Source: an uncultured Candidatus Saccharibacteria bacterium
Lineage (GTDB): Bacteria > Patescibacteriota > Minisyncoccia > Sungbacterales > SURF-37
Direction of reading: 5' to 3'
Assembly: GCA_964505815.1 (NCBI GenBank)
Contig: CAZDKA010000002.1
Coordinates: forward strand, 1-45,591
DNA length: 45,591 bases
The position numbers and the translations under genes are program-made. Position 1 is the stretch's first letter. Every line of letters begins with the position of its first letter. The notes under the pieces were generated by a model. The model saw nothing but the letters and a program-made list of their open reading frames with translations. It was not told the DNA's origin and did no database searches. Positions 2,755 to 42,994 of the stretch are shown here, piece by piece.

Positions 2755-2758
2755 CGTT

Positions 2759-4284: not shown

Positions 4285-4324
4285 ATGTACACAAGATTAG
4301 ACGATAGTTCAATGTTGTGTACAT
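4285..4324. promoter_or_regulatory. 10-bp inverted repeat in the AT-rich gap between ycaO and the Cys-rich ORF
   Basis: ATGTACACAA (4285-4294) and TTGTGTACAT (4315-4324) with a 20-nt spacer. On the minus strand a TATAAT (4188-4193) lies only 8 nt before the ATG at 4179. Confidence 0.4.
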
Positions 4325-4341
4325 ATAATAAAAATAAAAAG

Positions 4342-5943
4342 TTAAGGAAATGGGTGCGGCAGGGGATTAAATGCGGCACGGCTTCTATGCCCTAGTTTTT
4401 CGGGCACATGCTTGAGCCGCGCGGCCCCGAGAGGGACGGCGTGTTCTTTCATATAAAGAGGAATAAGCGGCGGTATGACGACCCGCACCGAATGGTATCC
4501 CAACGTATCTAAAACCGTATGCGTTGCCTCATAAAAATAAACTGCGTATTGGGGGCCAAGTTTTTCTATGGCGCCTTGCAGCCACGCCAACTCTTCCTTT
4601 TTGGACGAAAAGGTTCTGGCCGGAATATCATTCCACAGCTGCGCTGCGCCCTCCAAGAAAAAAGAGAAGGACCGAAGCGTTTCCGGATTAGCCCACAGCG
4701 CAAGGCGCCCCTCTTGTCCTATTTCTTCGCGAAAAGGCGAGTAATTCTCCGACAGGCGGTAAGTTTTTAATTCGGGAGTTCTGGTATACTGCGTCCGCAG
4801 CGACTGCCGAATCCCCAGCGATTCGCTTAAAGCCCTGACAACCGCTATTTCTGGCTTTGCGTCGCACCCGCCGCCAATGGTCAAGGAGGGCCCGCGCCCG
4901 GAACGATCAATTATGATCGCGGCAAAAGTCGGCACCGGGATATCTGTTGTAATATTAAGAATGGTCGGCTCAAGATGATAGCGGCGGCAGAGCGCAAGAA
5001 GCGTGGCAGCATCGGGGTGATTGAGCGCGGAGATGTCAACACGGGGCGGGGCAATGGCGTTCAGCCAGTGAATCAGGAAAGCGTCGCGCTGGATTAACTC
5101 GTATATGCCTAATATGACTGCTTCCTCAAGCGAAAAATGCCCGGCAGCGCCGTTGGTAATGGGCTGCTGCAGGAACGGTTCGTGATACTCAGCATGATGA
5201 CAGTAGTTCCAAAAAACGCATTGCGCCGGTAAAAGTACCGGAATGCTGCTCCCCAGTTTTCGCCCCGGCGTCCAAAAAAATTCATCGGCGTCATTGAAAC
5301 GGCGTTCTGGAAATATTTGTTTTTGCTCCTCTGAAAATTCTGCCAAATTCGCCGGATCAAGATACAAAACGCCTTTTTTTTTAAGGGAACGCAGGGAGCT
5401 TCTAACAAGTTTTTCCTTCCGATAGAGCGAAAGAAAATGTCGTTCCAGCAGCTCGCCGATGGCTTTGGAAAGCGCTTCTTCAAAATGAAGCGATGTGCCG
5501 CGGTTATAGAGCTGCTGCGGGTCGTGGCCGTCGGTCAGTGTTTTATCGAATTGGGATTGGAGATGGAGATAAAATAATTTCGGCTCATCGTTGAATGGCG
5601 GCTCAAATACGGCGCGCGGAGAGGTAAGAATTTTTTGTTCAAAGAGATAATTCGGTATGGCCTGCCATTGCGGCGGAACCGGATAAGAAGCATCACTAGG
5701 GATAAAAGAATCGTTGCTGGTACCCAGTTCTGCAATTTTTTGCTGTAACTGCAAAGACCAGCGGCCATGCGGGGACTGCGGCGAGCGATAACGCCCTGCC
5801 GCCTTTTGCGCCTCGCTGAAGATTTCGCTGGTTCTTTTTACACCAACTCCGCTCTGCGGAAGAAACGACTGGCGGTCGTTAAAAACTTCACGCGCTAATG
5901 GCTCGGACGTACTTTCCGTAGAGATATTTTTGTCTGAGTTCAT
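4342..5943 (-). CDS. ycaO: YcaO-domain protein (ATP-dependent peptide backbone-modifying enzyme family)
   Basis: Motifs read by eye: GTSLHFEEALSKAIGELLERH, PITNGAAGHFSLEEAVILGIYELIQRDAF, GGGCDAKPEIAVVRALSES. About 130-aa N-terminal extension. Starts 5 nt after the stop of 5949..7868. Confidence 0.8.
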   Translation of the reverse strand: MNSDKNISTESTSEPLAREVFNDRQSFLPQSGVGVKRTSEIFSEAQKAAGRYRSPQSPHGRWSLQLQQKIAELGTSNDSFIPSDASYPVPPQWQAIPNYLFEQKILTSPRAVFEPPFNDEPKLFYLHLQSQFDKTLTDGHDPQQLYNRGTSLHFEEALSKAIGELLERHFLSLYRKEKLVRSSLRSLKKKGVLYLDPANLAEFSEEQKQIFPERRFNDADEFFWTPGRKLGSSIPVLLPAQCVFWNYCHHAEYHEPFLQQPITNGAAGHFSLEEAVILGIYELIQRDAFLIHWLNAIAPPRVDISALNHPDAATLLALCRRYHLEPTILNITTDIPVPTFAAIIIDRSGRGPSLTIGGGCDAKPEIAVVRALSESLGIRQSLRTQYTRTPELKTYRLSENYSPFREEIGQEGRLALWANPETLRSFSFFLEGAAQLWNDIPARTFSSKKEELAWLQGAIEKLGPQYAVYFYEATHTVLDTLGYHSVRVVIPPLIPLYMKEHAVPLGAARLKHVPEKLGHRSRAAFNPLPHPFP

Positions 5944-5948
5944 AAAGG

Positions 5949-7868
5949 CTAATAGCTGTTACTATGAATACGGAGGCGCGATACGCCAAGCAACACGTGC
6001 CCTGCCGCGTCAATCCATGCTTCGACGGTTAAATAGTCGTGGCGAAAGCCGCCGATAACTTTCGGCCGAATCTCTTCGCGAATAAAAAAGGTGTTTTCTT
6101 GGTCGTATTGCATGGACAAAAGCCAGGCTAAACACATATCAATCGCGTCTTTATTTTTTCCTGGATCCAACGCCAATACCTCAAAAACTTTTCCGGTTCC
6201 GCGAGTGTAAGGGACGCCGCCGATCGTAGATTCGGGGAAGGCACCGTCTGAAAGCTGGTGGCCTTTGAGCCAATCGTTAACTCTCTGATAGAAAATCTCG
6301 TGGCTGCCGTGAAAACTATGCGCTAGCTCCGCCCAAACCGCAAGATTCTCGGCCCGGCCGCTTTCCAGCGATGCTGCAAATTTTTCTTTCAAAATCCGGG
6401 TTAGATTTTCAAACGGTGTTGAGAATCGATGATCGGCTCTTATCATCTTAAAGAAACTCGCGATTTGAGCAAAGGTAAGCGGTTCGAAGTTCAAGGCGGC
6501 GAGTCGGCTCAAAATTCTGTCTGCTGCGGCTCCCGCCTCGTTCGGCTTGCCCAATGCAAGCGATAACTGCCCGAAATAGGCTAATGTCAACTCCGAATTG
6601 GAAATTTGGAATTGAGAATTAGTAATTAAATAACTCTTGAGGTATTCAAAACTTTTTTCTGCGGCAATAGAATATCTTTGCTCTCCTGCGGCTTTACCGA
6701 ATTCGGCAAGCGCGAGAGCAGTAAAGGCTAGGCGCGGCCAGTCAATTTGTGTTTGGCGGCCGGTTAGCGGGTCTATAATCGGCGGAAGGTTGCCATCCGG
6801 CTCCTGGATCCGGCAAAGCCAATCGGCGGCCATTCGTAAACGCTGGATTATGAATTCTGAATTAAGAATTACGGATTCCGGGGCAACTACCGGACCGAAA
6901 AGAGACAAATGTTTTTTGCCATCTTCGGATTCTATGAAATCATCAACTTCAAAAATAGAAATATCGGCATCTTTATATGCGGCGCGGCTTAGTCCTGCTT
7001 TACTCTCTGCCAGATCCCCCAAAAAATCTTCAAGATTTTGAAACCGGCGCGCATTATGCGCCTCGGGCAGAAACCATCCTTTTCGTCCTTCTCCGTTTTT
7101 TTCCACGCCGCTTTTCATTCCAACATTCTTAAGAATGTTGGAATGACCGCGGGTTGTTTTTTGCTGTAAAAGATATCCTTTTTCCGAATAAATCGCGTTC
7201 CGCCCAAACTCAACCGGCAACAACGGCAGACGGAGGTCGTGCATAATAGTAATTTCTATCTGCGTATCCGCCAGCTCTTCCGGCGAAAGCGGCTTGAATC
7301 TAGGGTCGCGACTGGCGTTTACTGCGGCATCGGCAATACCCTCTCCCAAATGTCGGCGCTCCACTATTGAAGAACCGCGCAGATGCCCCTTGGTCCACAA
7401 AGCAACATCAAGGGTGATCGACAACTGGAAACGTTCAGAAAGAGTACTAAAGTATTCGCGGGTGAAACGCTCGCCGGTAACAAAAAATTTTTCAAGCGCG
7501 TGTCGGGCAATTTTCAACGCGATTATTCTTTCTTCTTCGTCAAACCCCCAACGAAGAGGCCTCACTTGCACTAAACGGTCTGTTCTTTCAAGAATCTCGA
7601 TCTCCGGAGATGAAAAAATTTTTATCCACGGTGCATCAAGTTTCTCGTTCGGCTTGGCGTTGCAGATAATAAACATTGGTGTTCGATCACTTGACGGCAT
7701 CCTCATTTTTTTTGGCCTGTCACCGAATCGGAGCGGGAAATCAAAATAAAAGCAGCCGTGCGTGCCCGGAAGATCAACAAAAATAATATCGCGCTCGTTC
7801 GCGACCCCGCTTAACCACTCTAAAACCGCATGAAGTTGTTGGGAGAAAGGTCTCCACCATCCAAACAT
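5949..7868 (-). CDS. AMMECR1-like domain fused to a prenyltransferase/terpene-cyclase-like alpha-alpha toroid domain
   Basis: Residues ~105-300 (WTKGHLRGSSI, NASRDPRFKPLSPEEL, IEITIMHDL, GWFLPEAH, FLGDLAESKAGL) follow the AMMECR1 pattern (LRGCIG, DPRF, LLPQV, KAGL), with Ser replacing the Cys. Residues ~330-639 carry three WLxxxQxxDG-type repeats (WLCRIQEPDGNL, WLKGHQLSDGAF, WLLSMQYDQ). Confidence 0.65.
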   Translation of the reverse strand: MFGWWRPFSQQLHAVLEWLSGVANERDIIFVDLPGTHGCFYFDFPLRFGDRPKKMRMPSSDRTPMFIICNAKPNEKLDAPWIKIFSSPEIEILERTDRLVQVRPLRWGFDEEERIIALKIARHALEKFFVTGERFTREYFSTLSERFQLSITLDVALWTKGHLRGSSIVERRHLGEGIADAAVNASRDPRFKPLSPEELADTQIEITIMHDLRLPLLPVEFGRNAIYSEKGYLLQQKTTRGHSNILKNVGMKSGVEKNGEGRKGWFLPEAHNARRFQNLEDFLGDLAESKAGLSRAAYKDADISIFEVDDFIESEDGKKHLSLFGPVVAPESVILNSEFIIQRLRMAADWLCRIQEPDGNLPPIIDPLTGRQTQIDWPRLAFTALALAEFGKAAGEQRYSIAAEKSFEYLKSYLITNSQFQISNSELTLAYFGQLSLALGKPNEAGAAADRILSRLAALNFEPLTFAQIASFFKMIRADHRFSTPFENLTRILKEKFAASLESGRAENLAVWAELAHSFHGSHEIFYQRVNDWLKGHQLSDGAFPESTIGGVPYTRGTGKVFEVLALDPGKNKDAIDMCLAWLLSMQYDQENTFFIREEIRPKVIGGFRHDYLTVEAWIDAAGHVLLGVSRLRIHSNSY

Positions 7869-9560: not shown

Positions 9561-9602
9561 AAAATACGTTTTAATATGCTATAGCATATTAAAACGTATT
9601 TT
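9561..9602. repeat. Palindrome family C, copy 1 (42-bp perfect palindrome)
   Basis: AAAATACGTTTTAATATGCTA|TAGCATATTAAAACGTATTTT checked base by base. Shares the AAAATACGTTTTA arm with 21527-21570. Confidence 0.9.
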
Positions 9603-11055: not shown

Positions 11056-11097
11056 AATGTTCCATATAGCAAGCGGCCGCTTGCCATATGGAACATT
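11056..11097. repeat. 42-bp near-perfect palindrome (single copy in window)
   Basis: AATGTTCCATATAGCAAGCGG|CCGCTTGCCATATGGAACATT, one mismatch, 46 nt upstream of the folD ATG. Confidence 0.85.
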
Positions 11098-11206
11098 GCT
11101 GTAACCCATGAAAAACAAAAAAGGAAGCGCGATGGCTTCCTTCATTCCTCTTGTAGTTATTGACGGCATGCCGAATTGGACCCATTCAACCAACCGGTAA
11201 CTATTG

Positions 11207-11236
11207 TAAAAACTTACGCGATCGCGTAAGTTTTTA
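11207..11236. repeat. Palindrome family B, copy 1 (30-bp perfect palindrome)
   Basis: TAAAAACTTACGCGA|TCGCGTAAGTTTTTA. Same core as 42183-42210 and 42969-42994. Confidence 0.9.
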
Positions 11237-11254
11237 TAATCCAGATTACGGAAG

Positions 11255-11289
11255 AATAAAATAAAAAATAGGAGGCGCGATGGCCTCCT
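11255..11289 (-). terminator. Rho-independent terminator after the 106-aa gene
   Basis: AGGAGGC-gcgatg-GCCTCCT (11270-11289), followed on the minus strand by a T-rich run. Confidence 0.6.
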
Positions 11290-11310
11290 CGAGATTAGCA
11301 ATGAATCTAC

Positions 11311-21286: not shown

Positions 21287-21411
21287 GAGCCCGCACCATA
21301 ATCCTTAATCTGTTTCTCGCTGTTGTCGTCTTTGTCAAACAAATCCGAAAGAAGTGAATACAAAATAAACCCGGCGGCTACCCCAAGAAAAAACGCGGTC
21401 CCGCGCTTCAT
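21283..21411 (-). CDS. Unlisted 42-aa membrane peptide coupled to the MaoC-like gene
   Basis: Hand translation: MKRGTAFFLGVAAGFILYSLLSDLFDKDDNSEKQIKDYGAGS. AAAGGAGG lies 4 nt (CGCC) before the ATG at 21411. The TGA stop overlaps the ATG at 21286 (ATGA). Confidence 0.45.
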   Translation of the reverse strand: MKRGTAFFLGVAAGFILYSLLSDLFDKDDNSEKQIKDYGAGS

Positions 21412-21526
21412 GGCGCCTCCTTTTTGAAATGAACAAATGTGCCTTCAGCGTATAAAGATCTGTCTTTGCCGTCAACCACATAACTGCGGTTTTTGTTATG
21501 AGGTGGCTAGGCGGTGAGGGAATAAA

Positions 21527-21570
21527 CAAAATACGTTTTAGCAAGCGATAGCATGCTAAAACGTATTTTG
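21527..21570. repeat. Palindrome family C, copy 2 (17-bp stem, 10-nt loop)
   Basis: CAAAATACGTTTTAGCA (21527-21543) / TGCTAAAACGTATTTTG (21554-21570). Confidence 0.9.
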
Positions 21571-21599
21571 CAGAAAAGATACTATCCTGTTTTTATTGG

Positions 21600-21680
21600 T
21601 TGACAACTTTTTGGCTCGGCGTATGCTTAATGCGTTCCTTAAAATCAGTACCACTTCTCACATAAAGGAGGGTCATCATA
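21600..21680 (+). promoter_or_regulatory. Promoter plus conserved leader of the secreted-protein family (copy P1)
   Basis: TTGACA at 21600-21605. Leader TTCCTTAAAATCAGTACCACTTCTCACATAAAGGAGGG is almost identical to 27637-27715 and partly shared with 43440-43515. Confidence 0.55.
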
Positions 21681-22067
21681 ATGAAACGATTTTTGGTGGC
21701 TTTTGCGGCTATCCTTGCGGTTTCTTCAGTGGCTTTCGCCCAGATCCCGACGCTGCCGGATTATGAAAAAGAAGCAAAACTTATTGGAACCGCAAAGTGC
21801 GACAACGGCGAGACGACCGTAACCGCCTACCGTAAAAGCGAAGACTACTTCGACTACTTCATAGAAGTTACACAAACAAAATCCGGCAACATGTTCTACC
21901 TTATGGGCACGGGCACGGGGCCACACTACTTCATGAAAGCCGCTGGCCAGCCGCAGGCAGAAGAAATGGATGCACAGTCCTGGAGTAAAGCAATTCAAGC
22001 CGAAGGCAACAGCCCGAATTTCTTGGCTTGGAGTCTTCTCCAAACGAGTGACTGTAAGGTGCTGTAA
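21681..22067 (+). CDS. Small secreted protein, LPDY(Q/E)K family, paralog P1
   Basis: Signal peptide MKRFLVAFAAILAVSSVAFA, then QIPTLPDYEKE and two conserved Cys (CDNGETT ... SDC). Paralogous to 27716.., 28124.. and 43065... Confidence 0.65.
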   Translation: MKRFLVAFAAILAVSSVAFAQIPTLPDYEKEAKLIGTAKCDNGETTVTAYRKSEDYFDYFIEVTQTKSGNMFYLMGTGTGPHYFMKAAGQPQAEEMDAQSWSKAIQAEGNSPNFLAWSLLQTSDCKVL

Positions 22068-22170
22068 AGTCAAGCTAGTCCAACAAGAAGACTACCTCAC
22101 CAAACGGGGAAAACAATGCTCCCCTTTTTTTATTTTTCATTATTCATCCGCTTTAACGCAAAAAGTGTAA

Positions 22171-22206
22171 TTCCAAAGTAAATTGCTTAAGCAATTTACT
22201 TTGGAA
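22171..22206. repeat. Palindrome family A, copy 1 (36-bp perfect palindrome)
   Basis: TTCCAAAGTAAATTGCTT|AAGCAATTTACTTTGGAA, between convergent P1 and leuS. Confidence 0.9.
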
Positions 22207-22249
22207 CTTTTAACTTTTGCAAATACGCGCTGCGGCAAGCGCCTGCAGT

Positions 22250-24811: not shown

Positions 24812-24944
24812 ACCCCGTTAGAAGTCAGTGTTTCCGGCAATAAAGCTTCCTACCAATAAAACTTCTCTGGCTGTTTTTGTCCCCCCGACTCAGTGCATAA
24901 AAATTTCGCTGCGAAATTTTTATGCACTGGACTTCTAGCGGGGT
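24812..24944. repeat. Family E hairpin element, copy 1 (nested hairpins, 133 nt)
   Basis: Outer stem ACCCCGTTAGAAGTC (24812-24826) / GACTTCTAGCGGGGT (24930-24944) with one T-G pair. It encloses a perfect 19-bp hairpin CAGTGCATAAAAATTTCGC / GCGAAATTTTTATGCACTG (24891-24929). Confidence 0.85.
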
Positions 24945-25544: not shown

Positions 25545-26414
25545 TCATATTCCAAAAATATTCCGCGCGTTCTTTGCGGTTTCTCCCGCGATTTCTTCAA
25601 ACGGCAGTCCCTTTAGCTCGGCAATCTTTTTTGCTACCTCAGCGACATAGGCGGGCTCGTTCCTTTTTCCGCGATAGGGTATGGGCGCGACATAAGGTGC
25701 GTCAGTTTCAAGAAGTATCCGTTCAAGCGGAATTAAGCGTACAACTTCGTCGTAATCGCGTGCAAAGGTAATGACCCCGCCGAATGAAAACGAGAAGCCG
25801 AGGCCGAGCAGTTCTTTGGCATCGGCCTCCGTGCCGCTGAAAAAGTGAATAATGCCCGGGTTGCTCGAATTATGAATTATGAAGTACGAATTAAGGATCT
25901 CAATCAAATCTTTGAACGCGTTCCGGCAATGCACCATAAGCGGTTTTTTTACCTCAAGAGAGAGTTCGATCTGTGCGGTAAACGCTTTTTTCTGCTTCAT
26001 AATTCCTAATTCCTTATTCCTAATTCTGTAGTAATCCAAGCCGCACTCGCCTATGGCGACTACTTTTTTATGCCCTGCAAGTTTTTTGTAAAATTCGTAG
26101 TCAAACTCTTCTCCGCGACTCACGAAGCCACCGGCAACATTCTCACATTCTTGAGAATGTGAGAATGTCCCGAGCTCCTTGGGGTCATGGTATGACTTTT
26201 CGGTATGAATCGGGTGGAGCCCCGTTGTGGCGTAAACGGCTTCCGGATGGCGCTCGGCTAATTTTATCGCGTTCTCCGAAGTATCTTTTTGCGTGCCGAC
26301 ATTAACCATCCATACTCCTTGCTCCAACGCCCGTTTAATTACCAAATCAGCGTCATCTTTGAATGCTGCGAATTGAACGTGGGTATGGACGTCAAAAAAT
26401 TTCGGGGTTGACAT
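25545..26414 (-). CDS. tatD: TatD-family metal-dependent hydrolase
   Basis: FDVHTHVQF, GLHPIH, AIGECGLDY, HCRNAF, ETDAPY. Carries two extra segments encoded by repetitive DNA. Confidence 0.9.
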   Translation of the reverse strand: MSTPKFFDVHTHVQFAAFKDDADLVIKRALEQGVWMVNVGTQKDTSENAIKLAERHPEAVYATTGLHPIHTEKSYHDPKELGTFSHSQECENVAGGFVSRGEEFDYEFYKKLAGHKKVVAIGECGLDYYRIRNKELGIMKQKKAFTAQIELSLEVKKPLMVHCRNAFKDLIEILNSYFIIHNSSNPGIIHFFSGTEADAKELLGLGFSFSFGGVITFARDYDEVVRLIPLERILLETDAPYVAPIPYRGKRNEPAYVAEVAKKIAELKGLPFEEIAGETAKNARNIFGI

Positions 26415-26968: not shown

Positions 26969-27181
26969 TTACAAATCCTCAAACTCCTTATCTGAAATTC
27001 CAAGATTTCTGATAATACGATTGAGAATTTCTGGGCCGACATCCGCTCCGTGCGGATTTGGAATATACAACTTCACTCCGCCACAGCGCATAAATGGGTG
27101 TTTCGCGCCAGAAAAAGGGCCCGAACATCCGGCCCTTCTTAACTTCGCAATTAGTTTTCTGTAACTAACGGGTTTTGGCAT
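26969..27181 (-). CDS. hicA: HicA-like (YcfA family) toxin
   Basis: Start at MPKPVSYRKLIAKLRRAG (ATG 27181). GAKHPFM ... LYIPNPHGADVGPEILNRIIRNLGIS follows the HicA pattern. Confidence 0.65.
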   Translation of the reverse strand: MPKPVSYRKLIAKLRRAGCSGPFSGAKHPFMRCGGVKLYIPNPHGADVGPEILNRIIRNLGISDKEFEDL

Positions 27182-27434
27182 GAACTCGACGCTGGGACAA
27201 TCTGGGGAAGACAAAATTAAAACCCGGAACGCGTTTGCCCTCGCTCAAAGAAACCAAAACATAATCTTCCAATACCGAGGCCAGGTCCTTGCGCGCTTCC
27301 TCTATAGTTGGCGCCTGCGCGTACACGCCAGGCACCTCGTTAATCCATGCCGCCCACCGCTTTACCGACTCGTCATATTTATACGTTGCCTTGGTAAGCA
27401 TTTTTTCTATGTATTTTGAAAATGTAAGTCCCAT
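27165..27434 (-). CDS. hicB: HicB-like (UPF0150) antitoxin
   Basis: WAAWINEVPGVYAQAPTIEEARKDLASVLEDYV follows the HicB N-terminal pattern. Its 3' end overlaps the hicA start. Confidence 0.65.
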   Translation of the reverse strand: MGLTFSKYIEKMLTKATYKYDESVKRWAAWINEVPGVYAQAPTIEEARKDLASVLEDYVLVSLSEGKRVPGFNFVFPRLSQRRVHAKTR

Positions 27435-30581: not shown

Positions 30582-30606
30582 AAAAGCGCCATCGGCGCTT
30601 TTTTCT
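30582..30606 (+). terminator. Rho-independent terminator
   Basis: AGCGCC-atc-GGCGCT followed by TTTTTT. Confidence 0.7.
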
Positions 30607-30651: not shown

Positions 30652-30689
30652 TTTCCAAAGTAAATTGCTTAAGCAATTTACTTTGGAAA
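30652..30689. repeat. Palindrome family A, copy 2 (38-bp perfect palindrome)
   Basis: TTTCCAAAGTAAATTGCTT|AAGCAATTTACTTTGGAAA, 24 nt past the stop of 30714..31415. Confidence 0.9.
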
Positions 30690-30713
30690 TCTCCTTACTA
30701 TGAACCGGGGGAG

Positions 30714-31415
30714 TCAAACAAAAGCAAAATGTTTTCTTATGTCATCGTCATGCACAATATGATTCGTCTCAACTAATCGAACATACTCGCCAACGCCGTA
30801 AAGAGAGATAATAAACTCTAGTTCCTCATTGCAGGGATACGGAAACACGAAAACGCTCCTCTGAAGCGAATAAAAACCTATTGCTTTCAACTTTTCTCGA
30901 AATCCTTCACGCGCTGATTTGTGTGTATCAGGAATATCGAATACGACTATGCGCCATGTGCCGTCCCACAAATCCGGTCTCCGGATTATAAATGTGTTGT
31001 ATGCTCTTTGGATGGCTCGTTTTTCTCCTAACTTCGTAAGGCTAATTTCATATTCATTTTCATTTATCTTCGAAGCGGAAACAAAATTTTGTTTCTTAAG
31101 AACGGCGAGCTCGCGTTGAAAATACCCACTATGCATATATGTTCGATATATTCTTCTGCCGCGCATACGTCCGAAGGCGCTAAATATATTGGGGGCGGCA
31201 GCAGCAACAGTAAGCGCTCCAGCAACTAGAAGCAAGGCGAGAAGCCCCTTACCAAATGCAATGCCTCCCGCTTTTGCCGCACGAATCATATCTTCTCGTT
31301 TCGTTGCCTTTTCGGCTTCTGCCCATTCTTGCCGCATGTGCCTTATAAAAAACTCCCTGTGATCTAAAAGGCGTGGAATAATTTTCTTCTCGTATTTTCT
31401 CTTCGTACCAGTCAT
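30714..31415 (-). CDS. Membrane-anchored PaaX-like protein (winged helix plus Cas2-like central domain), paralog A
   Basis: TM segment GLLALLLVAGALTVAAAAPNIFSAFGR. Wing-like YEISLTKLGEKRA. WDGTWRIVVFDIPDTHKSAREGFREKLKAIGFYSLQRSVFVFPYP follows the PaaX/Cas2-like pattern. Paralog of 42235..42963. Confidence 0.6.
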   Translation of the reverse strand: MTGTKRKYEKKIIPRLLDHREFFIRHMRQEWAEAEKATKREDMIRAAKAGGIAFGKGLLALLLVAGALTVAAAAPNIFSAFGRMRGRRIYRTYMHSGYFQRELAVLKKQNFVSASKINENEYEISLTKLGEKRAIQRAYNTFIIRRPDLWDGTWRIVVFDIPDTHKSAREGFREKLKAIGFYSLQRSVFVFPYPCNEELEFIISLYGVGEYVRLVETNHIVHDDDIRKHFAFV

Positions 31416-31433
31416 CTTCTTTTTTTGTCATCC

Positions 31434-31467
31434 TCCAAACTAAATTGCTTAAGCAATTTAGTTTGGA
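31434..31467. repeat. Palindrome family A, copy 3 (34-bp perfect palindrome, symmetric variant)
   Basis: TCCAAACTAAATTGCTT|AAGCAATTTAGTTTGGA, 18 nt upstream of the ATG at 31415. Differs from copies 1 and 2 by a G>C change mirrored in both arms. Confidence 0.9.
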
Positions 31468-31531
31468 AATTAATCAATTATCCAATTATCCAGTATCCAG
31501 ATGCTGCTTCTATCAAACACCCTCCGCAAGG

Positions 31532-38008: not shown

Positions 38009-38593
38009 TTAAGCGAGATGCTCGGCAAAAAGACGCGATGTAACCTCATCAAGCCGTCTTACCTCGGAGGCCTCCCCGACGGTTGCAAATTCGGCGCATG
38101 GCAGGAGAAGGCATCTTGATGTTGGCTCGGAAAAAAGACCGAGTTCGTCAAGGAAGCGAGCGCGGAACCAAACGAGCCCTGCTTTCTGCTCCTCGGAGCC
38201 AAGTGTCGGGCCATTAAGCAGGTCCAGCATTTCTAAAGCTACAGCAAAAAAATTTCCGTTTTCTTCACGGCGATCCTCAAAAAGCGCGCTGCCTACGGCC
38301 CCAAATATTTCAGAAGCGGCCCTTAGTCGGAACGGATCGCTCTTGATTGCCGGGAAAAAATTAAGAAGCTCCGCGCCGACCAGACGGTAATTATTCCTTC
38401 CGGCAACAAATGAAAGCCGCGAAAGGGAAAGCGGTTCAAGATGACCCTTGAGTTTTGCTTCAACTTTGCGCGCTCCTTGGGCAATGAGCCGAATATTCAC
38501 AAATCGGTCGGTCAGCGCAGTAATCAAAAGATCGGCCTCGCCGAGTTCTTCTTTCCTGAGAATGATTGCGTCAGTTACGTGCATAGTGTTCAC
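38009..38593 (-). CDS. recO: DNA repair protein RecO (short form)
   Basis: AIILRKEELGEADLLITALT ... EPLSLSRLSFVAGRNNYRLVGAE matches the RecO OB-fold N-terminus. ATGA-type overlap with the ileS stop. Confidence 0.7.
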   Translation of the reverse strand: MNTMHVTDAIILRKEELGEADLLITALTDRFVNIRLIAQGARKVEAKLKGHLEPLSLSRLSFVAGRNNYRLVGAELLNFFPAIKSDPFRLRAASEIFGAVGSALFEDRREENGNFFAVALEMLDLLNGPTLGSEEQKAGLVWFRARFLDELGLFSEPTSRCLLLPCAEFATVGEASEVRRLDEVTSRLFAEHLA

Positions 38594-41500
38594 GCTCTAT
38601 CAATCCCTACCCAAAGCTCGTGGCCGTCAATAGAGAGCTCGCGCTCAACCGCAAACACTTTCTTGCCGCCGAGCGTAAAAATTTTGGCGCCGGTTTCTTT
38701 TTCAACAAATTTCTTAGAGCGCTCCAGCATCTTAAGCATCTCCGCGTCTCCCGCGGCCTGTAGTTTTATAGGGTGCTCTGGCCGAAGGCCCAGGTCTTTT
38801 CTCATCTCCTGGACATTCCGCACAAACTCTCTAAGCCATCCCTCTTCACGGAGTTCCGGGGTAATTTCGGTATCAAGCTCAACCTCGCCGGCTATTGTTT
38901 CGTCTCTTACGATTTCTTTCACGTTCACCTCGTCTCTAACTACATCCAACAACTCCTTGCTCAACGTTACACTCTTCACCTTAGCCGTCCTTAAGGGTTG
39001 ACGAACTTTTATTCCGTGCTTTGCGCGCTCGGCAAGGATGAGTGCTACAAGGGCGCGGGCTTCGTGCATCTCGTAGAATTCAAACTCTACCGCTTTGACT
39101 TGCGGCCACGGCCGGAGGTGCACACTATTTTCTTTCAGTCCAAATTTCGGTTTTAGTTCCTGATAAATAATCTCAGCAAGAAAAGGAGTAAAGGGCGCTA
39201 CAAGCTCCGCGAGACGAAGAAGAGCCCAACCGGTTATCGCCGCCGCTTCATCCTTGTCGGCCTTTGATGCTGGTTTCTGGAAGCGGCGGCGTGACCTACG
39301 CAAATACCAATTCGAGAAATCGTCTAGAAGGAACCCTTCCAAATGCCGGGCGGCACCAACAACGTCGTAGGCATCAAGAAGCTTTCCAACAAGATTGCTG
39401 TAATATTCAAGTCGCCCGACCAGCCAACGGTCAAGAACAGTCGTTGCTCTGTGCCGCTGAATTTTCTTTCTTGGCACCTTGTCCACGTATGTATCAAAAA
39501 GCACGAAGCTGTTCCAAAGTGTTGCCAGCGGCCCGCGCAGTTTATTCAAAAGGTCTTTCTCATCAAAACGCTTTGGCTCGCCCGGGGGATTCGCGGTGAA
39601 GAAATACCAGCGGATGGTGTCAGCGCCGTATTTCTTCATCATCTCCCACGGATCCACCACGTTGCCTTTGGACTTAGACATCTTCTGACCGTTTTTATCA
39701 AGAACATGCCCCAGGGAAATTACATGGCGAAAGGGCGCCCCTTTTTCAAGAAGAGTCGCGACGGCCAAAAGGGTATAAAACCAGCCGCGCGTCTGATCAA
39801 CGCCTTCGGCGATAAAGTCGGCCGGATACAATAATTTTTCTTTTTGATTTTTGATTTTTGATTTTTGATTTTGAGCCCAAGCGAATGGGTAATGAGCTTG
39901 GGCGAACGGCATCGCCCCCGAGTCAAACCAAACGTCTGCCACATCTTTAACCCTCTCCATCTTGCCGCCGCAGGCCTGCCCGCCGGAAAGGCCTGACTTA
40001 CAGATAAGCCGCACCTCGTCAATAAATGGCCGGTGCAGATTCACTTCGCCCGAGTTGTCGCGAGGCAAATTTAAAAATTTGATGGGCTGAACTCCGGCAA
40101 GGCCTATGTAATCCTCTTTTCTGCCGCGTAATTTTATGATGCCGTCGCGGTCGAGGCCTCGGGATGCGCCGTCCAAAATCCAAATCGGATACTCATGGCT
40201 TATGATAAGAATTTTTTTGTTGCGGTATTTCCGGTCAATGTCCTGCATGAAACCCATCAGGCGGGCTCTCAAGTCAGAAAGCGACTCTCCTTCCGGCGGG
40301 GCTTTCGCAAAATACTCCTCGGCCGAGGAATAAAAGCCGTTATACTCTTTTGTCGGCCGGCCGTTGAATATGCCTACATTAATTTCCCGAACCCTTGTGT
40401 CTTTCAAAACCTCTTTAACGCCCAAAACCTCGGCGACAATTCGTGCGGCCTCTGTGGTACGGAGAACATCGGAGTGAATGATGATATCAATATTTTCTTT
40501 TTTTAATTTTTCCGCGGCCAATCTGATCTGCTCTTTGCCTAGATCGGTCATGTGGTATTTTGAGTTCGAGTCCGCGACAATACCCAAGAGCTGGGTTTCT
40601 GACTCGCCGTGGCGCAGAGCAAAATAAGTGTTGCCGGAACTTTTTGCTCTTCCGGCAAGTTCCTCAAGCGAGCTCAACGCTTCAACTGCTTTACACTTAG
40701 TGCATTCCCATATGGGCAAAGGCGTTCCCCAGTAGCGCTCTCTGGAAAAAGCCCAGTCGCGAAGTTCCGAGAGAAATTCGCCGAAGCGTCCGTCTTTTAT
40801 ATGCTCCGGAACCCAGTCGATGGTCTGGTTATTTTTAATCAGTTCCTGTTTAATTTTCGTCATCCGCACCCACCATGAATTTCTCGCGTAATAAAGAAGC
40901 GGCGTTCCGCATCGCCAGCAATGGGGATATTCGTGTTCATACGGCAAAATAGCAAAGAGCAGTTTTCTTTTTTTTAGGTCTTCCACAATGACCTTGTCGG
41001 CCTCCTTAACGAACTTTCCCTCGCCTATAACTCCTTTTTTCATCCTGCCGTCAGGATCAACCGTCTCCAGTATCGGATAGTCGCCCGAGTATTCTTTTTT
41101 CATCGCCGCCATATCCTCTTCCCCGTATGCCGGAGCAAGATGCACGAAACCCGACCCTTCTTCGGTAGAAACAAAATCCGCTCCGTAAACGCGGTAAGGG
41201 GGCGCTACTGTTCCGTAGTCGGAAGCCGGGGCATAGAGCGGCTCGTATGAGAGGCCGACTAGCGCCTTGCCGGAAACTTTCTCGGTAATTTCCGGAGAGG
41301 CCCCTTTGGCATCATAGGGCGGAACATTTGCCGACCATACAAACTCGTTGCCGATTTTAAACTTGGTGTATTCCGTTGTCGGGTTAACGGCAACGGCGAC
41401 GTTGGCCGGAAGAGTCCAAGGCGTCGTGGTCCAGACCAGCAGCGATTCGTTTTTTCTGTCTTTGATTTTTAAGCGGACGAAAACTGAATCCTCCTTTACT

Positions 41501-42102
41501 TTTATATACGCTCCGGGCTGGCCAAGTTCGTGCGAAGAAAGGCCGGTCTGGCACCTGGGGCACCACGGAATGATTTTAAAATCCTTATAAAGGAGACCTT
41601 TCTTCCAAATTTCTTTAATAATCCACCAGAGAGTTTCGATATAACTCGTCTCATAGGTAATATATGGATGCTCTAGATCAAGCCAAAAACCGATTCGCTT
41701 GGTCAAGCGCTCCCACTCTTCTTTAAAACGCCATACCGACTCGCGGCACTTCTCGTTGAACTCAGCAATACCGTAATGTTCAATGTCTTTTTTTGTCTTT
41801 AGGCCGAGTTCCTTTTCAACTTGAAGTTCCACCGGCAGACCATGCGTGTCCCAGCCGGCTTTTCTCAAAACCTGAAAACCGCGCATGGTCTTGTAGCGCG
41901 GAATTATGTCCTTGAAAGCTCGCGACTCAACATGGTGAATGCCAGGCGCGGCGTTAGCCGTCGGCGGCCCCTCATAAAAAATAAACGGCTTGCCCCGCTT
42001 GGTTTTTTGCAGGCTCTTCTCGAAAATCCTCTCCCGCTCCCAGAATTCAAGAATTTTTTGCTCTCTTCCAGGGAGATTGAATACCTGTTTCTTTTGCATC
42101 AT
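38590..42102 (-). CDS. ileS: Isoleucyl-tRNA synthetase (1170 aa) carrying an inserted domain
   Basis: PPTANAAPGIHHV (HIGH), WTTTPWTLPAN, CWRCGTP, KMSKSKGNVV, DQTRGWFYT. Confidence 0.95.
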   Translation of the reverse strand: MMQKKQVFNLPGREQKILEFWERERIFEKSLQKTKRGKPFIFYEGPPTANAAPGIHHVESRAFKDIIPRYKTMRGFQVLRKAGWDTHGLPVELQVEKELGLKTKKDIEHYGIAEFNEKCRESVWRFKEEWERLTKRIGFWLDLEHPYITYETSYIETLWWIIKEIWKKGLLYKDFKIIPWCPRCQTGLSSHELGQPGAYIKVKEDSVFVRLKIKDRKNESLLVWTTTPWTLPANVAVAVNPTTEYTKFKIGNEFVWSANVPPYDAKGASPEITEKVSGKALVGLSYEPLYAPASDYGTVAPPYRVYGADFVSTEEGSGFVHLAPAYGEEDMAAMKKEYSGDYPILETVDPDGRMKKGVIGEGKFVKEADKVIVEDLKKRKLLFAILPYEHEYPHCWRCGTPLLYYARNSWWVRMTKIKQELIKNNQTIDWVPEHIKDGRFGEFLSELRDWAFSRERYWGTPLPIWECTKCKAVEALSSLEELAGRAKSSGNTYFALRHGESETQLLGIVADSNSKYHMTDLGKEQIRLAAEKLKKENIDIIIHSDVLRTTEAARIVAEVLGVKEVLKDTRVREINVGIFNGRPTKEYNGFYSSAEEYFAKAPPEGESLSDLRARLMGFMQDIDRKYRNKKILIISHEYPIWILDGASRGLDRDGIIKLRGRKEDYIGLAGVQPIKFLNLPRDNSGEVNLHRPFIDEVRLICKSGLSGGQACGGKMERVKDVADVWFDSGAMPFAQAHYPFAWAQNQKSKIKNQKEKLLYPADFIAEGVDQTRGWFYTLLAVATLLEKGAPFRHVISLGHVLDKNGQKMSKSKGNVVDPWEMMKKYGADTIRWYFFTANPPGEPKRFDEKDLLNKLRGPLATLWNSFVLFDTYVDKVPRKKIQRHRATTVLDRWLVGRLEYYSNLVGKLLDAYDVVGAARHLEGFLLDDFSNWYLRRSRRRFQKPASKADKDEAAAITGWALLRLAELVAPFTPFLAEIIYQELKPKFGLKENSVHLRPWPQVKAVEFEFYEMHEARALVALILAERAKHGIKVRQPLRTAKVKSVTLSKELLDVVRDEVNVKEIVRDETIAGEVELDTEITPELREEGWLREFVRNVQEMRKDLGLRPEHPIKLQAAGDAEMLKMLERSKKFVEKETGAKIFTLGGKKVFAVERELSIDGHELWVGIDRA
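40063..40638 (-). other. Histidine-phosphatase (phosphoglycerate-mutase-like) domain inserted inside ileS
   Basis: Residues ~489-680: YFALRHGESETQ (RHG motif), HSDVLRTTEAA, ILIISHEYPI (second His). They lie between WECTKCKAVE and NLHRPFIDEV. Confidence 0.7.
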
Positions 42103-42182: not shown

Positions 42183-42210
42183 AAAAACTTACGCGATCGC
42201 GTAAGTTTTT
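42183..42210. repeat. Palindrome family B, copy 2 (28-bp perfect palindrome)
   Basis: AAAAACTTACGCGA|TCGCGTAAGTTTTT, 24 nt past the stop of 42235..42963. Confidence 0.9.
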
Positions 42211-42234: not shown

Positions 42235-42963
42235 TCACTTCTTTAGGCCAAAAAATTCTTTGAGATCATCGTCGAAGTTGATGACTCTCGTCTCTACGTA
42301 GCGAAGATGGCCGCCCAGGTCGTACAGCCTCCTCAAAAACTCAATTTCCTCCCTACACGGATACGGAAAAACGAAGGTGCTTTTTTGAAGAGGGCAAAAG
42401 CCCATATTCTTTAGACATCGCCGCAGGCCATCCCTAGCCCATTTATCCCCCTCCGGGACATCAAAAAACACCAACCGCCAGATGCCGTCCCATTTTTCTG
42501 GGCGCAGAACTTTTAAGCCCCAAAACGCCCGTTTCGCTAACTGCTCTTGACCTAACTTGGTAAGCCGAACTTCCCTTGTTTCGTCTTCGGTCTTTACGAC
42601 GCTCACATAACCTCGCCGTTTGAAATAAGTTATTTTATTTTCAAAATCTTTCCGATGAAAATAGCGCCTGTGCTTGCCGAGCCGGCCAAACGCCGAAAAG
42701 ATGTTTGGCGCAACCGCACCCACTATCAAAATCCCGCACACCGCAGCCATACCTAAAATAGTAAGCCCCAAAACCGTTCCGGTTTCTTTCAGCGTTTCGC
42801 GCCGTCTGAGTTTACGCGCGTCTCTTTCAACCAATCTTTCCGCCTCCTCCCATTCTCTTTTAAGATGTTCAACGATAAAACGGCGGTTTTCCCGATTCTT
42901 AACTGCCCGTTTCACGAGTTTACTCTCATATCCTCTTTTAAAAATCTTCTTTCCTGTCCCCAT
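42235..42963 (-). CDS. Membrane-anchored PaaX-like protein (winged helix plus Cas2-like central domain), paralog B
   Basis: Start at MGTGKKIFKRGYE (ATG 42963). The 16 upstream codons of the track ORF are the palindrome itself. APNIFSAFGR and WDGIWRLVFFDVPEGDKWARDGLRRCLKNMGFCPLQKSTFVFPYP. Confidence 0.6.
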   Translation of the reverse strand: MGTGKKIFKRGYESKLVKRAVKNRENRRFIVEHLKREWEEAERLVERDARKLRRRETLKETGTVLGLTILGMAAVCGILIVGAVAPNIFSAFGRLGKHRRYFHRKDFENKITYFKRRGYVSVVKTEDETREVRLTKLGQEQLAKRAFWGLKVLRPEKWDGIWRLVFFDVPEGDKWARDGLRRCLKNMGFCPLQKSTFVFPYPCREEIEFLRRLYDLGGHLRYVETRVINFDDDLKEFFGLKK

Positions 42964-42968
42964 AGTTA

Positions 42969-42994
42969 AAAACTTACGCGATCGCGTAAGTTTT
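42969..42994. repeat. Palindrome family B, copy 3 (26-bp perfect core)
   Basis: AAAACTTACGCGA|TCGCGTAAGTTTT, ending 5 nt from the ATG at 42963. Confidence 0.9.

What the first reader, a model, noticed from the sequence alone, without database searches (positions are those of the whole stretch)
30652..31467. PaaX/Cas2-like membrane protein bracketed by a cognate 34-38-bp perfect palindrome on both sides (locus A)
The 233-aa gene (TM helix, winged-helix-like segment, WDGTWRIVVFDIP...LQRSVFVFPYP Cas2-like block) has a family A palindrome 18 nt upstream of its ATG and another 24 nt after its stop. The upstream copy carries a G>C change mirrored in both arms, so dyad symmetry is maintained. This fits a dimeric DNA-binding protein recognising its own flanks (autoregulation or boundary elements), or a cassette with hairpin ends. 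A run AATTATCC AATTATCC AGTATCC sits just beyond, at about 31473-31497.
Basis: partly seen in the sequence, partly recalled or inferred. Interest (0 to 1): 0.7.

Follow-up and report, generated by a model that had tools for sequence, protein, structure and literature searches.

The report
Membrane PaaX/Cas2-like gene bracketed by palindromes
A small membrane-anchored DNA-binding-type protein of ultra-small (Patescibacteria) bacteria sits between two copies of its own 34-38-bp perfect palindrome, and this gene-plus-palindromes unit recurs across the phylum with a different palindrome for each paralog. It is most likely a previously undescribed family of self-regulating membrane-tethered regulators.

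Summary
The 233-aa gene (30714-31415, minus strand) has a hydrophobic anchor, a partial winged helix and a PaaX_M/Cas2-like domain. Perfect palindromes lie 18 nt before its ATG and 24 nt after its stop.

A 42%-identical paralog (42235-42963) is bracketed the same way by a different palindrome. Each family has one further copy in the window.

Across 91 non-redundant homolog loci, 30 have a long palindrome just upstream, 30 just downstream and 18 both. Sequences are lineage-specific, but the two copies at a gene match each other. Half of all long palindromes in 1.16 Mb lie beside such a gene (P ~3e-37). Orthologs at 55-57% identity are syntenic and keep both palindromes, so this is not an actively moving cassette.

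Best reading (confidence ~0.45): a PaaX-type dimer binds its ~40-bp dyad, the size of E. coli PaaX's 39-bp operator. It represses a promoter embedded in the upstream copy and uses the downstream copy as an auxiliary or boundary site.

Main rival: a REP/RAYT-like system. Differences between the two copies are mirrored on both arms, copies within a genome evolve in concert, extra copies are not conserved between relatives, and related palindromes sit inside coding-sequence insertions. I found no publication describing it.

The parts
30714..31415 (-). Gene for the 233-aa protein. It has a charged N-terminal helical region (1-50), a hydrophobic anchor (57-75, then the invariant APN-IFSAFG motif), a recognition helix plus wing (about 89-140) and a Cas2-like PaaX_M domain (149-225) that keeps the Cas2 beta1 Asp (D160) and the QxSVF motif.
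31434..31467 (.). Family A palindrome, upstream copy: 34 bp, perfect. It lies 18 nt before the ATG and 65 nt after the stop of the upstream AI-2E transporter gene, with no terminator in between.
30652..30689 (.). Family A palindrome, downstream copy: 38 bp, perfect. It lies 24 nt after the stop codon, between that stop and the bidirectional terminator.
30582..30602 (.). G+C-rich stem-loop flanked by A/T runs. It is a terminator-like site shared by the convergent 165-aa gene and the PaaX-like gene.
   Evidence: read
31476..31498 (.). Run AATTATCC AATTATCC AGTATCC, just upstream of the upstream palindrome on the gene's sense strand. It gives GATAAT-like -10 hexamers. Its sequence is not conserved in the 92%-identical relative L095.
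22171..22206 (.). Third family A copy: 36 bp, identical to the downstream copy. It lies 42 nt after the LeuRS stop, between convergent genes. The whole interval is absent in relative L099.
42235..42963 (-). Paralog (P0017, 242 aa, 42% identical, PaaX_M 71.3 bits), directly upstream of IleRS.
42969..42994 (.). Family C palindrome, upstream copy. It lies 5 nt from the paralog's ATG with no Shine-Dalgarno sequence between. A possible promoter, TTGTTA-17-TAAGTT-7-ATG, is embedded in it (read by eye).
42183..42210 (.). Family C palindrome, downstream copy. It lies 24 nt after the paralog's stop and 77 nt before the IleRS ATG.
11207..11236 (.). Third family C copy, between two terminator-like hairpins upstream of FolD.
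9561..9602 (.). Family B palindrome: 42 bp, perfect, with the same TGC-N4-GCA centre type. It lies 22 nt after the PAP2 stop and before a terminator. Its partner gene is not in the window.
21527..21570 (.). Second family B copy, imperfect at the centre, in a divergent promoter region.
7115..7146 (.). 32-bp perfect palindrome inside the AMMECR1-like coding sequence, at the start of a 23-aa in-frame insertion. Whether it belongs to the PaaX-like system is not shown.
26137..26168 (.). Related palindrome (shares ACATTCTTRAGAATGT) inside the TatD coding sequence. It is read in a different frame and coincides with a 7-aa insertion.

Best explanation
The gene encodes a membrane-tethered, homodimeric, sequence-specific DNA-binding protein of the PaaX architecture: a winged helix plus a Cas2-like dimerisation domain, but without PaaX's ligand-binding C-terminal domain.

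Proposed mechanism:
- Each paralog recognises its own ~34-50-bp dyad-symmetric site.
- The upstream site overlaps or contains the gene's promoter, so binding represses the gene (negative autoregulation, as PaaX does at Px).
- The downstream site, about 750-800 bp away at the other end of the coding sequence, acts as an auxiliary operator (looping) or as a roadblock or boundary. That would insulate the autoregulated gene from read-through in a very compact genome.
- The protein is inserted into the membrane as it is made, so it is delivered next to its own gene. That would explain why its main sites are in cis.
- A few extra cognate sites elsewhere would be bound as well.

What is shown: the fold, the domain make-up, and a conserved, cognate, paralog-specific bracket.
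What is inferred: binding, repression, looping or insulation, and the cytoplasmic location of the C-terminal domains.

The unusually perfect symmetry and the mirrored changes are attributed to homogenisation of the two arms (template switching at quasi-palindromes, or conversion) acting on top of selection for binding. This step is speculative.
For: - Fold and domains: PaaX_M at 1.4e-21. The AF2 model has pLDDT 82-91 over residues 100-220. Its best PDB match is E. coli PaaX 8a39, followed by PaaX-like 3l09 and 3kfw and by Cas2. A profile of the family hits the MarR recognition helix plus wing over residues 89-150.
- Operator size: E. coli PaaX binds TGATTC-N27-GAATCA (39 bp) and represses its own promoter (PMC9493321). 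The palindromes here are 34-52 bp.
- Association: 30 of 91 non-redundant homolog loci have an upstream palindrome, 30 a downstream one and 18 both. Nearly all full-length homologs with 36% identity or more have one. Of 99 long palindromes in 1.16 Mb, 49 lie next to a PaaX_M gene, which takes up ~5% of the sequence (binomial P ~3e-37).
- Specificity: the two paralogs in the window, and the two in L051, each have their own palindrome. Orthologs keep related palindromes: window C and L021 are 63% identical proteins whose palindrome cores differ by one mirrored change. The window, L001, L010, L096 and L098 all share AAATTGC-N4-GCAATTT.
- Protein variability: the recognition-helix region varies between paralogs while the Cas2-like domain is highly conserved.
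- Symmetry through the centre: 51 of 57 flanking palindromes are symmetric right through the central bases. A stem-loop does not require that; a two-fold symmetric complex on duplex DNA does.
- Promoter position: the upstream copies lie 3-28 nt from the ATG. In family C and its L021 ortholog they abut the ATG with no room for a ribosome-binding site. The promoter therefore has to lie within the palindrome.
- Stability of the locus: synteny with MetRS and AI-2E across three diverged genomes shows long-term purifying selection on the whole unit.
Against: - No binding data exist.
- The consensus promoter scan found no promoter at locus A.
- The winged helix lacks the first helices of a canonical wHTH, and residues 74-87 are modelled with pLDDT below 50.
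- Independent half-site binding by a symmetric dimer does not predict about 40 mirrored differences, against about 10 one-sided ones, between the upstream and downstream copies of the same locus.
- Copies within a genome share even the central tetranucleotide (TTAA, CTAG, TATA or TCGA) while orthologous genomes differ. This is concerted evolution.
- Downstream copies often overlap the stop codon. Dispersed copies mostly lie after stop codons between convergent genes, where an operator has no promoter to control.
- Dispersed copies A3 and B2 are absent from relative L099, so they are not a conserved regulon.
- The Cas2 catalytic-type Asp and the QxSVF motif are invariant. A pure dimerisation module does not need them.
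- The membrane topology of the long form is unsettled.
Confidence: 0.45

Rival explanations
1. A REP/RAYT-like (or domesticated IS-like) system. The palindromes are hairpin- or cruciform-forming repeat elements. The flanked Cas2-fold protein is their cognate nuclease or maintenance factor. It recognises the extruded or single-stranded hairpin and copies, homogenises or disperses it. Solo copies elsewhere are products of that activity, or remnants of deleted units.
For: - The layout matches RAYT/REP from my own knowledge: a single-copy, vertically inherited gene flanked on both sides by its own palindrome, several paralogs per genome each with a private palindrome family, and extra copies in extragenic 3' regions.
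- Mirrored differences and concerted evolution of copies within a genome suggest copying or pairing rather than independent site evolution.
- Solo copies are not conserved in relative L099.
- Related palindromes occur inside in-frame coding-sequence insertions, in two different reading frames.
- The promoter appears to lie in the upstream repeat and the stop codon often lies in or next to the downstream repeat. That is typical of IS elements (IS layout from my own knowledge).
- The invariant Cas2-type Asp and an invariant PYPC motif fit a catalytic role.
Against: - There is no HUH/Y1 motif, and no transposase, integrase or phage family hit.
- Extra cognate copies are few: roughly one per 100 kb or more of flanking sequence, not tens to hundreds.
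- No target-site duplication or conserved flanking tetranucleotide is seen at the three A or three C copies (read).
- The palindromes are symmetric through the centre, unlike hairpin-loop substrates.
- The in-coding-sequence palindromes are not linked to any PaaX_M gene in the window.
- No relatives were found on viral contigs.
Confidence: 0.25
2. An RNA-level device. The palindromes are transcribed as perfect 15-25-bp hairpins at the 5' and 3' ends of the mRNA. They set its stability, its processing (for example by RNase III) or its translation. The Cas2/RRM-fold protein may bind or cut them. Dispersed copies would be 3'-UTR stabilisers of other genes.
For: - The downstream copy, A3 and B1 all lie between a stop codon and an intrinsic terminator, so they fall within 3' UTRs. 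The L096 downstream copy is likewise followed by a terminator.
- The tight bracket of the coding sequence fits transcript-defined elements.
- The hairpins are stable: -14 to -16 kcal/mol as DNA, z about -8.5.
- Mirrored changes fit selection on pairing.
- Some Cas2 proteins have been reported as RNases (my own knowledge).
Against: - There is no wobble signature. Of 57 flanking palindromes, 40 are perfect. The mismatches are 6 G-U on the sense strand, 4 A-C and 17 transversion type.
- Loop bases stay symmetric in 51 of 57.
- In family C and in L021 the palindrome ends 3-5 nt from the ATG with no ribosome-binding site. A transcribed 5' hairpin there would block initiation.
- No Rfam family matches.
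- Paralog-specific sequences are not needed for generic stabilising hairpins.
Confidence: 0.12
3. An excisable or invertible gene cassette. The two identical palindromes are recombination sites, acting as direct and inverted repeats at once. The third copy is an empty site.
For: - Identical sites flank a single gene, and a solo copy lies elsewhere.
- The site size and the 4-6-bp symmetric centre recall recombinase core sites (my own knowledge).
Against: - Position and orientation are the same in three diverged genomes.
- There is no recombinase domain.
- No circular or alternative junctions were seen among the contigs retrieved.
Confidence: 0.05

Closest known systems
PaaX, the phenylacetyl-CoA-responsive repressor of E. 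coli and Pseudomonas (PDB 8a39, 3l09)
   Same: - It has a winged-helix element followed by a Cas2-like central (dimerisation) domain. It is the best structural match, and PaaX_M is hit at 1.4e-21.
- PaaX binds a ~39-bp dyad and represses its own promoter. That matches the palindrome length and position here.
   Different: - No PaaX_C ligand domain and no Pfam hit to the PaaX N-terminal wHTH.
- TIGR02277 scores 26 bits against a cut-off of 265.
- It has an N-terminal membrane anchor, with or without a 50-aa charged extension.
- No paa genes lie nearby.
- It keeps Cas2-type motifs (FDIP Asp, QxSVF). From my memory of the E. coli PaaX sequence, PaaX lacks these.
- The sites are fully palindromic and lie on both sides of the gene.
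Cas2 (CRISPR adaptation protein)
   Same: - The ferredoxin-like fold and the beta1 Asp / QxSVF signature are present. Partial HMM hits cover residues 154-190.
- The public name attached to homolog P0011 is 'CRISPR-associated endonuclease Cas2'.
   Different: - No cas1 was found among the window ORFs scanned with Pfam, and no CRISPR array is in the window.
- The domain is fused to a membrane anchor and a winged helix.
- The Pfam Cas2 score is below the gathering threshold.
- The 'Cas2' database annotation is therefore misleading.
REP sequences with their RAYT transposase-like genes (REPINs)
   Same: - The gene is flanked by its own palindromic repeats.
- Several gene/repeat families co-exist in one genome.
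- The gene is inherited vertically.
- Solo repeats sit in extragenic 3' regions.
   Different: - The protein is not an HUH/Y1 enzyme.
- There are only a few dispersed copies.
- The repeats are perfect palindromes, symmetric through the centre, rather than imperfect hairpins carrying a GTAG-type cleavage motif.
Membrane-bound one-component regulators (ToxR, CadC) and the membrane-associated DNA binder Noc
   Same: A DNA-binding module is tethered to the membrane (inferred here). Noc binds dispersed palindromic sites and brings DNA to the membrane (my own knowledge).
   Different: - The folds are unrelated.
- There is no periplasmic sensor domain here.
- Those systems do not bracket their own gene with sites.

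Membership tests
PaaX (TIGR02277 equivalog) | Full-length match above the curated cut-off | tested here: not met
   26.3 bits against a cut-off of 264.55. Only residues 106-205 align.
PaaX (TIGR02277 equivalog) | Central Cas2-like domain (PF20803) | tested here: met
   76.8 bits against a cut-off of 24. The paralog scores 71.3 bits.
PaaX (TIGR02277 equivalog) | N-terminal wHTH (PaaX N) and C-terminal PaaX_C domain | tested here: not met
   Neither Pfam family was reported at E<=1. The structure shows only a recognition helix plus wing. The protein ends right after the Cas2-like domain.
PaaX (TIGR02277 equivalog) | Control of paa (phenylacetate) genes and response to phenylacetyl-CoA | tested here: not met
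   No paa genes are in the window; the neighbours are aminoacyl-tRNA synthetases, an AI-2E transporter and the like. The ligand response cannot be tested here.
PaaX-like DNA binding | Dimer binds a long dyad-symmetric operator at its own promoter | not testable with these tools
   A cognate 34-38-bp dyad lies 18 nt from the ATG. The length matches PaaX's 39-bp site. Binding was not measured.
Cas2 (CRISPR-Cas) | Cas2 HMM above threshold over the whole domain | tested here: inconclusive
   Pfam: 21.1 bits, below the 23.8 cut-off. TIGR01573: 25.6 bits, above the 24.5 cut-off, but only 36 residues are aligned.
Cas2 (CRISPR-Cas) | Adjacent cas1 and a CRISPR array | tested here: not met
   The window has no repeat-spacer array and no Cas1 among the scanned ORFs. 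Homolog loci carry varied housekeeping neighbours.
Cas2 (CRISPR-Cas) | Conserved beta1 Asp and QxSVF motif | tested here: met
   D160, Q185, S187 and F189 are invariant in 20 homologs.
REP/RAYT | Associated gene encodes an HUH/Y1 (IS200-like) transposase | tested here: not met
   No such Pfam or NCBIfam hit. No conserved His-hydrophobic-His motif in the alignment.
REP/RAYT | Gene flanked on both sides by its cognate palindromic repeats | tested here: met
REP/RAYT | Many dispersed extragenic copies per genome | tested here: inconclusive
   Each family in the window has one extra copy in 45.6 kb. Extra cognate copies are rare in the +/-10-kb flanks of other loci. No complete genome was available.
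Insertion sequence | Several near-identical copies, target-site duplications, variable location | tested here: not met
   Paralogs are 42% identical. Orthologs are syntenic. No duplications are seen at the flanks.

The most novel reading that the evidence does not exclude
The palindromes are a new class of short, perfect-hairpin repeat elements of Patescibacteria. The membrane-anchored Cas2-fold protein is their dedicated nuclease or copying factor. This would be a functional analogue of REP/RAYT built on a Cas2-like fold instead of an HUH fold. The protein would nick or bind the extruded dyad, homogenise the arms and occasionally seed new copies, including in-frame copies inside genes. It would also be a non-CRISPR relative of Cas2 that acts on palindromic repeats.
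Probability: 0.2. Interest if true: 0.9.

Novelty: new variant of a known kind. Interest (0 to 1): 0.66.

Why it matters
Patescibacteria (the candidate phyla radiation) have tiny genomes. By general knowledge they have few recognisable regulators.

This is a large family that is annotated only as hypothetical or, misleadingly, as 'Cas2'. It has 612 clusters at E<1e-30, at least 582 loci in species-representative genomes, and several paralogs per genome.

Each member comes with a readable, private ~40-bp recognition sequence next to its gene. That gives ready-made protein/DNA-site pairs for studying specificity, and a handle on gene regulation or chromosome-membrane tethering in organisms that are difficult to cultivate (my own knowledge).

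If the rival reading holds, it would link a Cas2-fold protein to palindromic repeats outside CRISPR. That bears on where the CRISPR adaptation module came from.

The mirrored changes and the palindromes inside coding-sequence insertions also suggest an active palindrome-generating or palindrome-perfecting process in these genomes.

Tried and rejected
- **Known RNA family:** no Rfam hit at gathering threshold anywhere in the window, and no tRNA or tmRNA.
- **Phage or defence origin:** no relatives on viral contigs. PHROGs gave no hit for the protein and only a marginal one (E 0.006, unknown function) for the paralog. PADLOC gave only partial Cas2 hits.
- **CRISPR context:** no arrays.
- **RNA wobble test:** mismatches in 57 flanking palindromes show no G-U bias.
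- **Consensus promoter scan of locus A:** nothing useful. The promoter proposals for family C were read by eye only.
- **PDB sequence search with the Cas2-like domain alone:** no hit.
- **Metagenome scan for the family A core:** it returned only an unrelated 28-bp palindrome with no PaaX_M gene nearby, so no genome-wide copy count was obtained.
- **Conserved partner gene:** the convergent small ORF next to the gene keeps its position in L001 and L010 but not its sequence. Other homolog loci have unrelated neighbours.
- **Literature:** full-text searches for PaaX + Cas2-like, PaaX + Patescibacteria, and candidate phyla radiation + palindrome found nothing relevant.
- **Helical phasing:** distances between the upstream and downstream sites, worked out by hand from the coordinates, range from 642 to 891 bp with no obvious periodicity.
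Full report
**1. Observation**

The ORF 30714..31415 (minus strand) encodes a 233-aa protein. A perfect 34-bp palindrome, TCCAAACTAAATTGCTTAAGCAATTTAGTTTGGA, lies at 31434-31467, 18 nt before the ATG. A perfect 38-bp palindrome, TTTCCAAAGTAAATTGCTTAAGCAATTTACTTTGGAAA, lies at 30652-30689, 24 nt after the stop. The single difference inside the shared arms (C vs G) is mirrored on both arms.

A third copy, identical to the downstream one over 36 bp, lies at 22171-22206. The 18-nt core occurs three times against 0.09 expected. The window has 10 perfect palindromes with arms of at least 13 bp. None appeared in 100 first-order Markov simulations. The short run AATTATCC AATTATCC AGTATCC is real but lies at 31476-31498.

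**2. The protein**

Sequence and structure evidence:
- Pfam gives PaaX_M ('PaaX central Cas2-like domain') at 76.8 bits. Cas2 is just under its threshold.
- NCBIfam gives weak partial hits to PaaX (26 bits against a cut-off of 265) and to Cas2 (25.6 against 24.5, over 36 residues).
- An AlphaFold2 model built from 20 homologs has pLDDT 82-91 over residues 100-220.
- The model's best PDB match is E. coli PaaX 8a39 (E 1.8e-5, 137 columns). PaaX-like 3l09 and 3kfw and many Cas2 structures follow.
- A profile of the family hits the recognition helix plus wing of MarR/SarZ over residues 89-150, and the Cas2-like protein SSO8090 over residues 155-188.

The winged helix looks incomplete. It consists of one strand, one helix, a beta-hairpin and one more helix. 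Residues 74-87 are modelled poorly.

The strongest hydrophobic stretch is residues 57-75, GLLALLLVAGALTVAAAAP. It is followed by the invariant motif APN-IFSAFG. Most of the more distant homologs found (30-37% identical) are about 170-230 aa, and many start only a few residues before this anchor. The anchor plus the two C-terminal modules therefore form the core of the family.

Basic residues are denser on the C-terminal side of the anchor. That favours a cytoplasmic DNA-binding part, but the topology of the long form is not settled.

D160, Q185, S187 and F189, which form the Cas2 signature, are invariant. So are P192, Y193 and C195.

**3. A second locus in the window**

A 42%-identical paralog (P0017; 42235..42963, minus strand; PaaX_M 71.3 bits) is bracketed by a different palindrome, AAAACTTACGCGATCGCGTAAGTTTT. 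One copy at 42969-42994 lies 5 nt from its ATG. The other at 42183-42210 lies 24 nt after its stop. A third copy lies at 11207-11236.

The window also holds other long palindromes that have no PaaX-like gene within the window:
- 9561-9602 and 21527-21570 (family B)
- 11056-11097
- 24891-24929
- 7115-7146 and 26137-26168

All the other genes are ordinary housekeeping genes of a Patescibacteria-type chromosome.

**4. The bracket is conserved across the phylum**

The family is large:
- The word-indexed protein search found only 23 relatives.
- The exhaustive profile search found 612 clusters at E<1e-30 and 2852 at E<1e-10.
Most of the 80 kept are titled as Patescibacteria-group MAGs, a few carry other labels, and often several came from one genome.

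Every close homolog locus I fetched has the same layout:
- L001-L004 (57% identical) have 38- and 40-bp perfect palindromes 20 nt before the start and 26 nt after the stop.
- L005-L008 (45%) have 44- and 42-bp palindromes.
- L009 (42%), L010 (55%) and L014 follow the pattern as well.

Over 91 non-redundant loci, with a strict criterion (arms of 12 bp or more, at most one mismatch), 30 have an upstream palindrome, 30 a downstream one and 18 both. Among full-length homologs of 36% identity or more, nearly all do. A later core search added two more two-sided cases, L009 and L080.

In 1.16 Mb of loci, 49 of 99 long palindromes lie within about 260 nt of a PaaX_M gene. Those zones make up about 5% of the sequence (binomial P ~3e-37).

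The two copies at a locus are always related to each other and differ between lineages. Two paralogs only 3 kb apart in L051 each have their own palindrome.

**5. Stability of the locus**

The window, L001/L002 and L010/L015 share the order AI-2E transporter, PaaX-like gene, a small convergent ORF, then MetRS (plus TatD in L010). The PaaX-like proteins are 55-57% identical and the TatD proteins 67%. The unit has therefore stayed in place for a long time with both palindromes kept.

Orthologous palindromes share AAATTGC-N4-GCAATTT but differ in the central four bases:
- TTAA in the window and L095
- CTAG in L001 and L096
- TATA in L010
- TCGA in L098

Where both copies were recovered, they agree within each genome.

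Window family C and the palindromes of its 63%-identical ortholog in L021 differ in the core by one mirrored change.

**6. How the palindromes evolve**

I compared the upstream and downstream copies of 19 loci. About 40 positions differ, each changed on both arms in a complementary way. About 10 differences are one-sided.

Of 57 flanking palindromes, 40 are perfect outside the two central bases, and 51 are symmetric right through the centre. The mismatches show no G-U bias: 6 are G-U on the sense strand, 4 are A-C and 17 are of transversion type.

In a 92%-identical relative (L095), the upstream palindrome has three or four one-sided changes and the downstream one has a single one-sided change. 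Symmetry is therefore not restored at once.

These signals point in different directions:
- Symmetry through the centre is what a two-fold symmetric protein on duplex DNA needs. A stem-loop does not need it.
- Mirrored variation at positions that evidently tolerate two different bases is not predicted by independent half-site binding.
- That variation calls for pairing selection or for homogenisation of the arms, by template switching at quasi-palindromes or by conversion.

**7. Position relative to expression signals**

Upstream copies end 3-28 nt from the ATG in most loci. In family C and in L021 they end 3-5 nt from it, with no ribosome-binding site between. A transcribed hairpin there would block initiation. 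The promoter must therefore lie within the palindrome. By eye, TTGTTA-17-TAAGTT-7-ATG fits a leaderless transcript. At locus A the consensus scan found no promoter.

Downstream copies begin between 7 nt before and about 26 nt after the end of the stop codon in most loci.

At locus A the downstream copy lies between the stop codon and a bidirectional terminator. The solo copy A3 lies 42 nt after the LeuRS stop. B1 lies 22 nt after the PAP2 stop. The solo copy in L019 lies 70 nt after the rpsI stop, between convergent genes. All of these are in 3' regions. Others lie in divergent promoter regions.

**8. Turnover of solo copies**

In a relative whose LeuRS is 71% identical (L099), LeuRS and MaoC are 58 nt apart and no palindrome lies between them. 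In the window they are separated by about 960 bp. That interval holds palindrome B2, an orphan 128-aa ORF, a terminator and palindrome A3.

Two related palindromes, both containing ACATTCTTRAGAATGT, lie inside coding sequences in different reading frames. One opens a 23-aa insertion in an AMMECR1-like protein, relative to two homologs. The other coincides with a 7-aa insertion in TatD, relative to the L010 ortholog.

Extra cognate copies are rare in the +/-10 kb around other bracketed genes. I found one in L019, one on another contig of the L086 genome, and one extra next to L032.

**9. Interpretation**

The most economical reading is a PaaX-type dimer that binds its own ~40-bp dyad. E. coli PaaX binds TGATTC-N27-GAATCA (39 bp) and represses its own promoter (PMC9493321). 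Here the upstream site overlaps the promoter, which gives autorepression. The downstream site would serve as a second operator (looping) or as a boundary or roadblock.

Membrane tethering offers a reason for sites in cis. The protein is inserted beside the gene that is being expressed. I put this reading at about 0.45.

The chief rival, at about 0.25, is a REP/RAYT-like relationship in which the Cas2-fold protein acts on extruded palindromes. It accounts better for four things:
- the mirrored changes
- the concerted evolution of copies
- solo copies that are not conserved
- the palindromes inside coding sequences

It lacks any catalytic precedent, and the copy numbers are low.

An RNA-level role (about 0.12) fits the 3'-UTR positions. 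It is weakened by the lack of a wobble signature, by the symmetric centres and by the palindromes that abut the ATG. A recombination cassette (about 0.05) is contradicted by synteny.

**10. Comparison with known families, and novelty**

The protein is not a PaaX ortholog. It lacks PaaX_C, it has no paa gene context, and it scores far below the equivalog cut-off. It is not a CRISPR Cas2 either, since no cas1 was found among the ORFs scanned and there is no array. The public 'Cas2' label on a homolog is therefore misleading.

It shares the bracket layout with RAYT/REP but not the enzyme fold. Full-text searches found no description of this family or of these palindromes.

I rate it as a new variant of a known kind: a PaaX-like regulator with a palindromic operator. 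It has several unusual features:
- a membrane anchor
- loss of the ligand-binding domain
- paralog-specific perfect palindromes on both sides of the gene
- evidence that dyad symmetry itself is maintained

Noticed in passing
window 7115-7146 (ORF 5949..7868, minus strand): A 32-bp perfect palindrome lies inside an AMMECR1-like coding sequence. It opens a 23-aa in-frame insertion (GHSNILKNVGMKSGVEKNGEGRK) that two homologs of 51-53% identity lack.
   Followed up: yes
window 26137-26168 (TatD 25545..26414, minus strand): A related palindrome (shares ACATTCTTRAGAATGT, read in a different frame) lies inside TatD. It coincides with a 7-aa insertion relative to the 67%-identical ortholog in L010.
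   Followed up: yes
window 21287-22249: The interval between MaoC and LeuRS holds palindrome B2, an orphan 128-aa ORF, a terminator and palindrome A3. It is missing in relative L099, where the two genes are 58 nt apart with no palindrome.
   Followed up: partly
window 38590-42102 (minus strand): The isoleucyl-tRNA synthetase carries a histidine phosphatase (His_Phos_1) domain inserted at residues 496-651.
   Followed up: no
window 26969-27434 (minus strand): Two small overlapping ORFs (81 and 89 aa) look by eye like a HicA/HicB toxin-antitoxin pair. No search was run.
   Followed up: no
window 11110-11295 and 30582-30602: Terminator-like hairpins recur with near-identical form (GGAAGC-GCGAT-GGCTTCC and GGAGGC-GCGAT-GGCCTCC). 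Two of them bracket the solo family C palindrome upstream of FolD.
   Followed up: no
window 1612-7868: A YcaO cyclodehydratase gene (4342..5943) sits beside TPR-repeat proteins and the 639-aa AMMECR1 fusion ORF. This may be a peptide-modification cluster.
   Followed up: no
window 9561-9602, 11056-11097, 24891-24929: Other 39-42-bp palindromes (the first and last perfect, the middle one with one mismatch) have no PaaX-like gene in the window. The family B core resembles the palindrome next to the homolog in L020 (2 mismatches in 22), which suggests a partner paralog elsewhere in the genome.
   Followed up: partly
L100 2655-2688 and L101 13424-13457: Another organism's metagenome contigs carry GGGCTAAATTGCTTAAGCAATTTAGCCC, the same core as family A. 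It lies about 70 nt after a 260-aa membrane protein gene, with no PaaX_M gene on the fetched DNA.
   Followed up: partly
L013 vs L014, downstream of the gene: Two contigs encode the identical 231-aa homolog. L014 has a 42-bp downstream palindrome that the scan did not find in L013. This may be a presence/absence polymorphism or an assembly difference.
   Followed up: no
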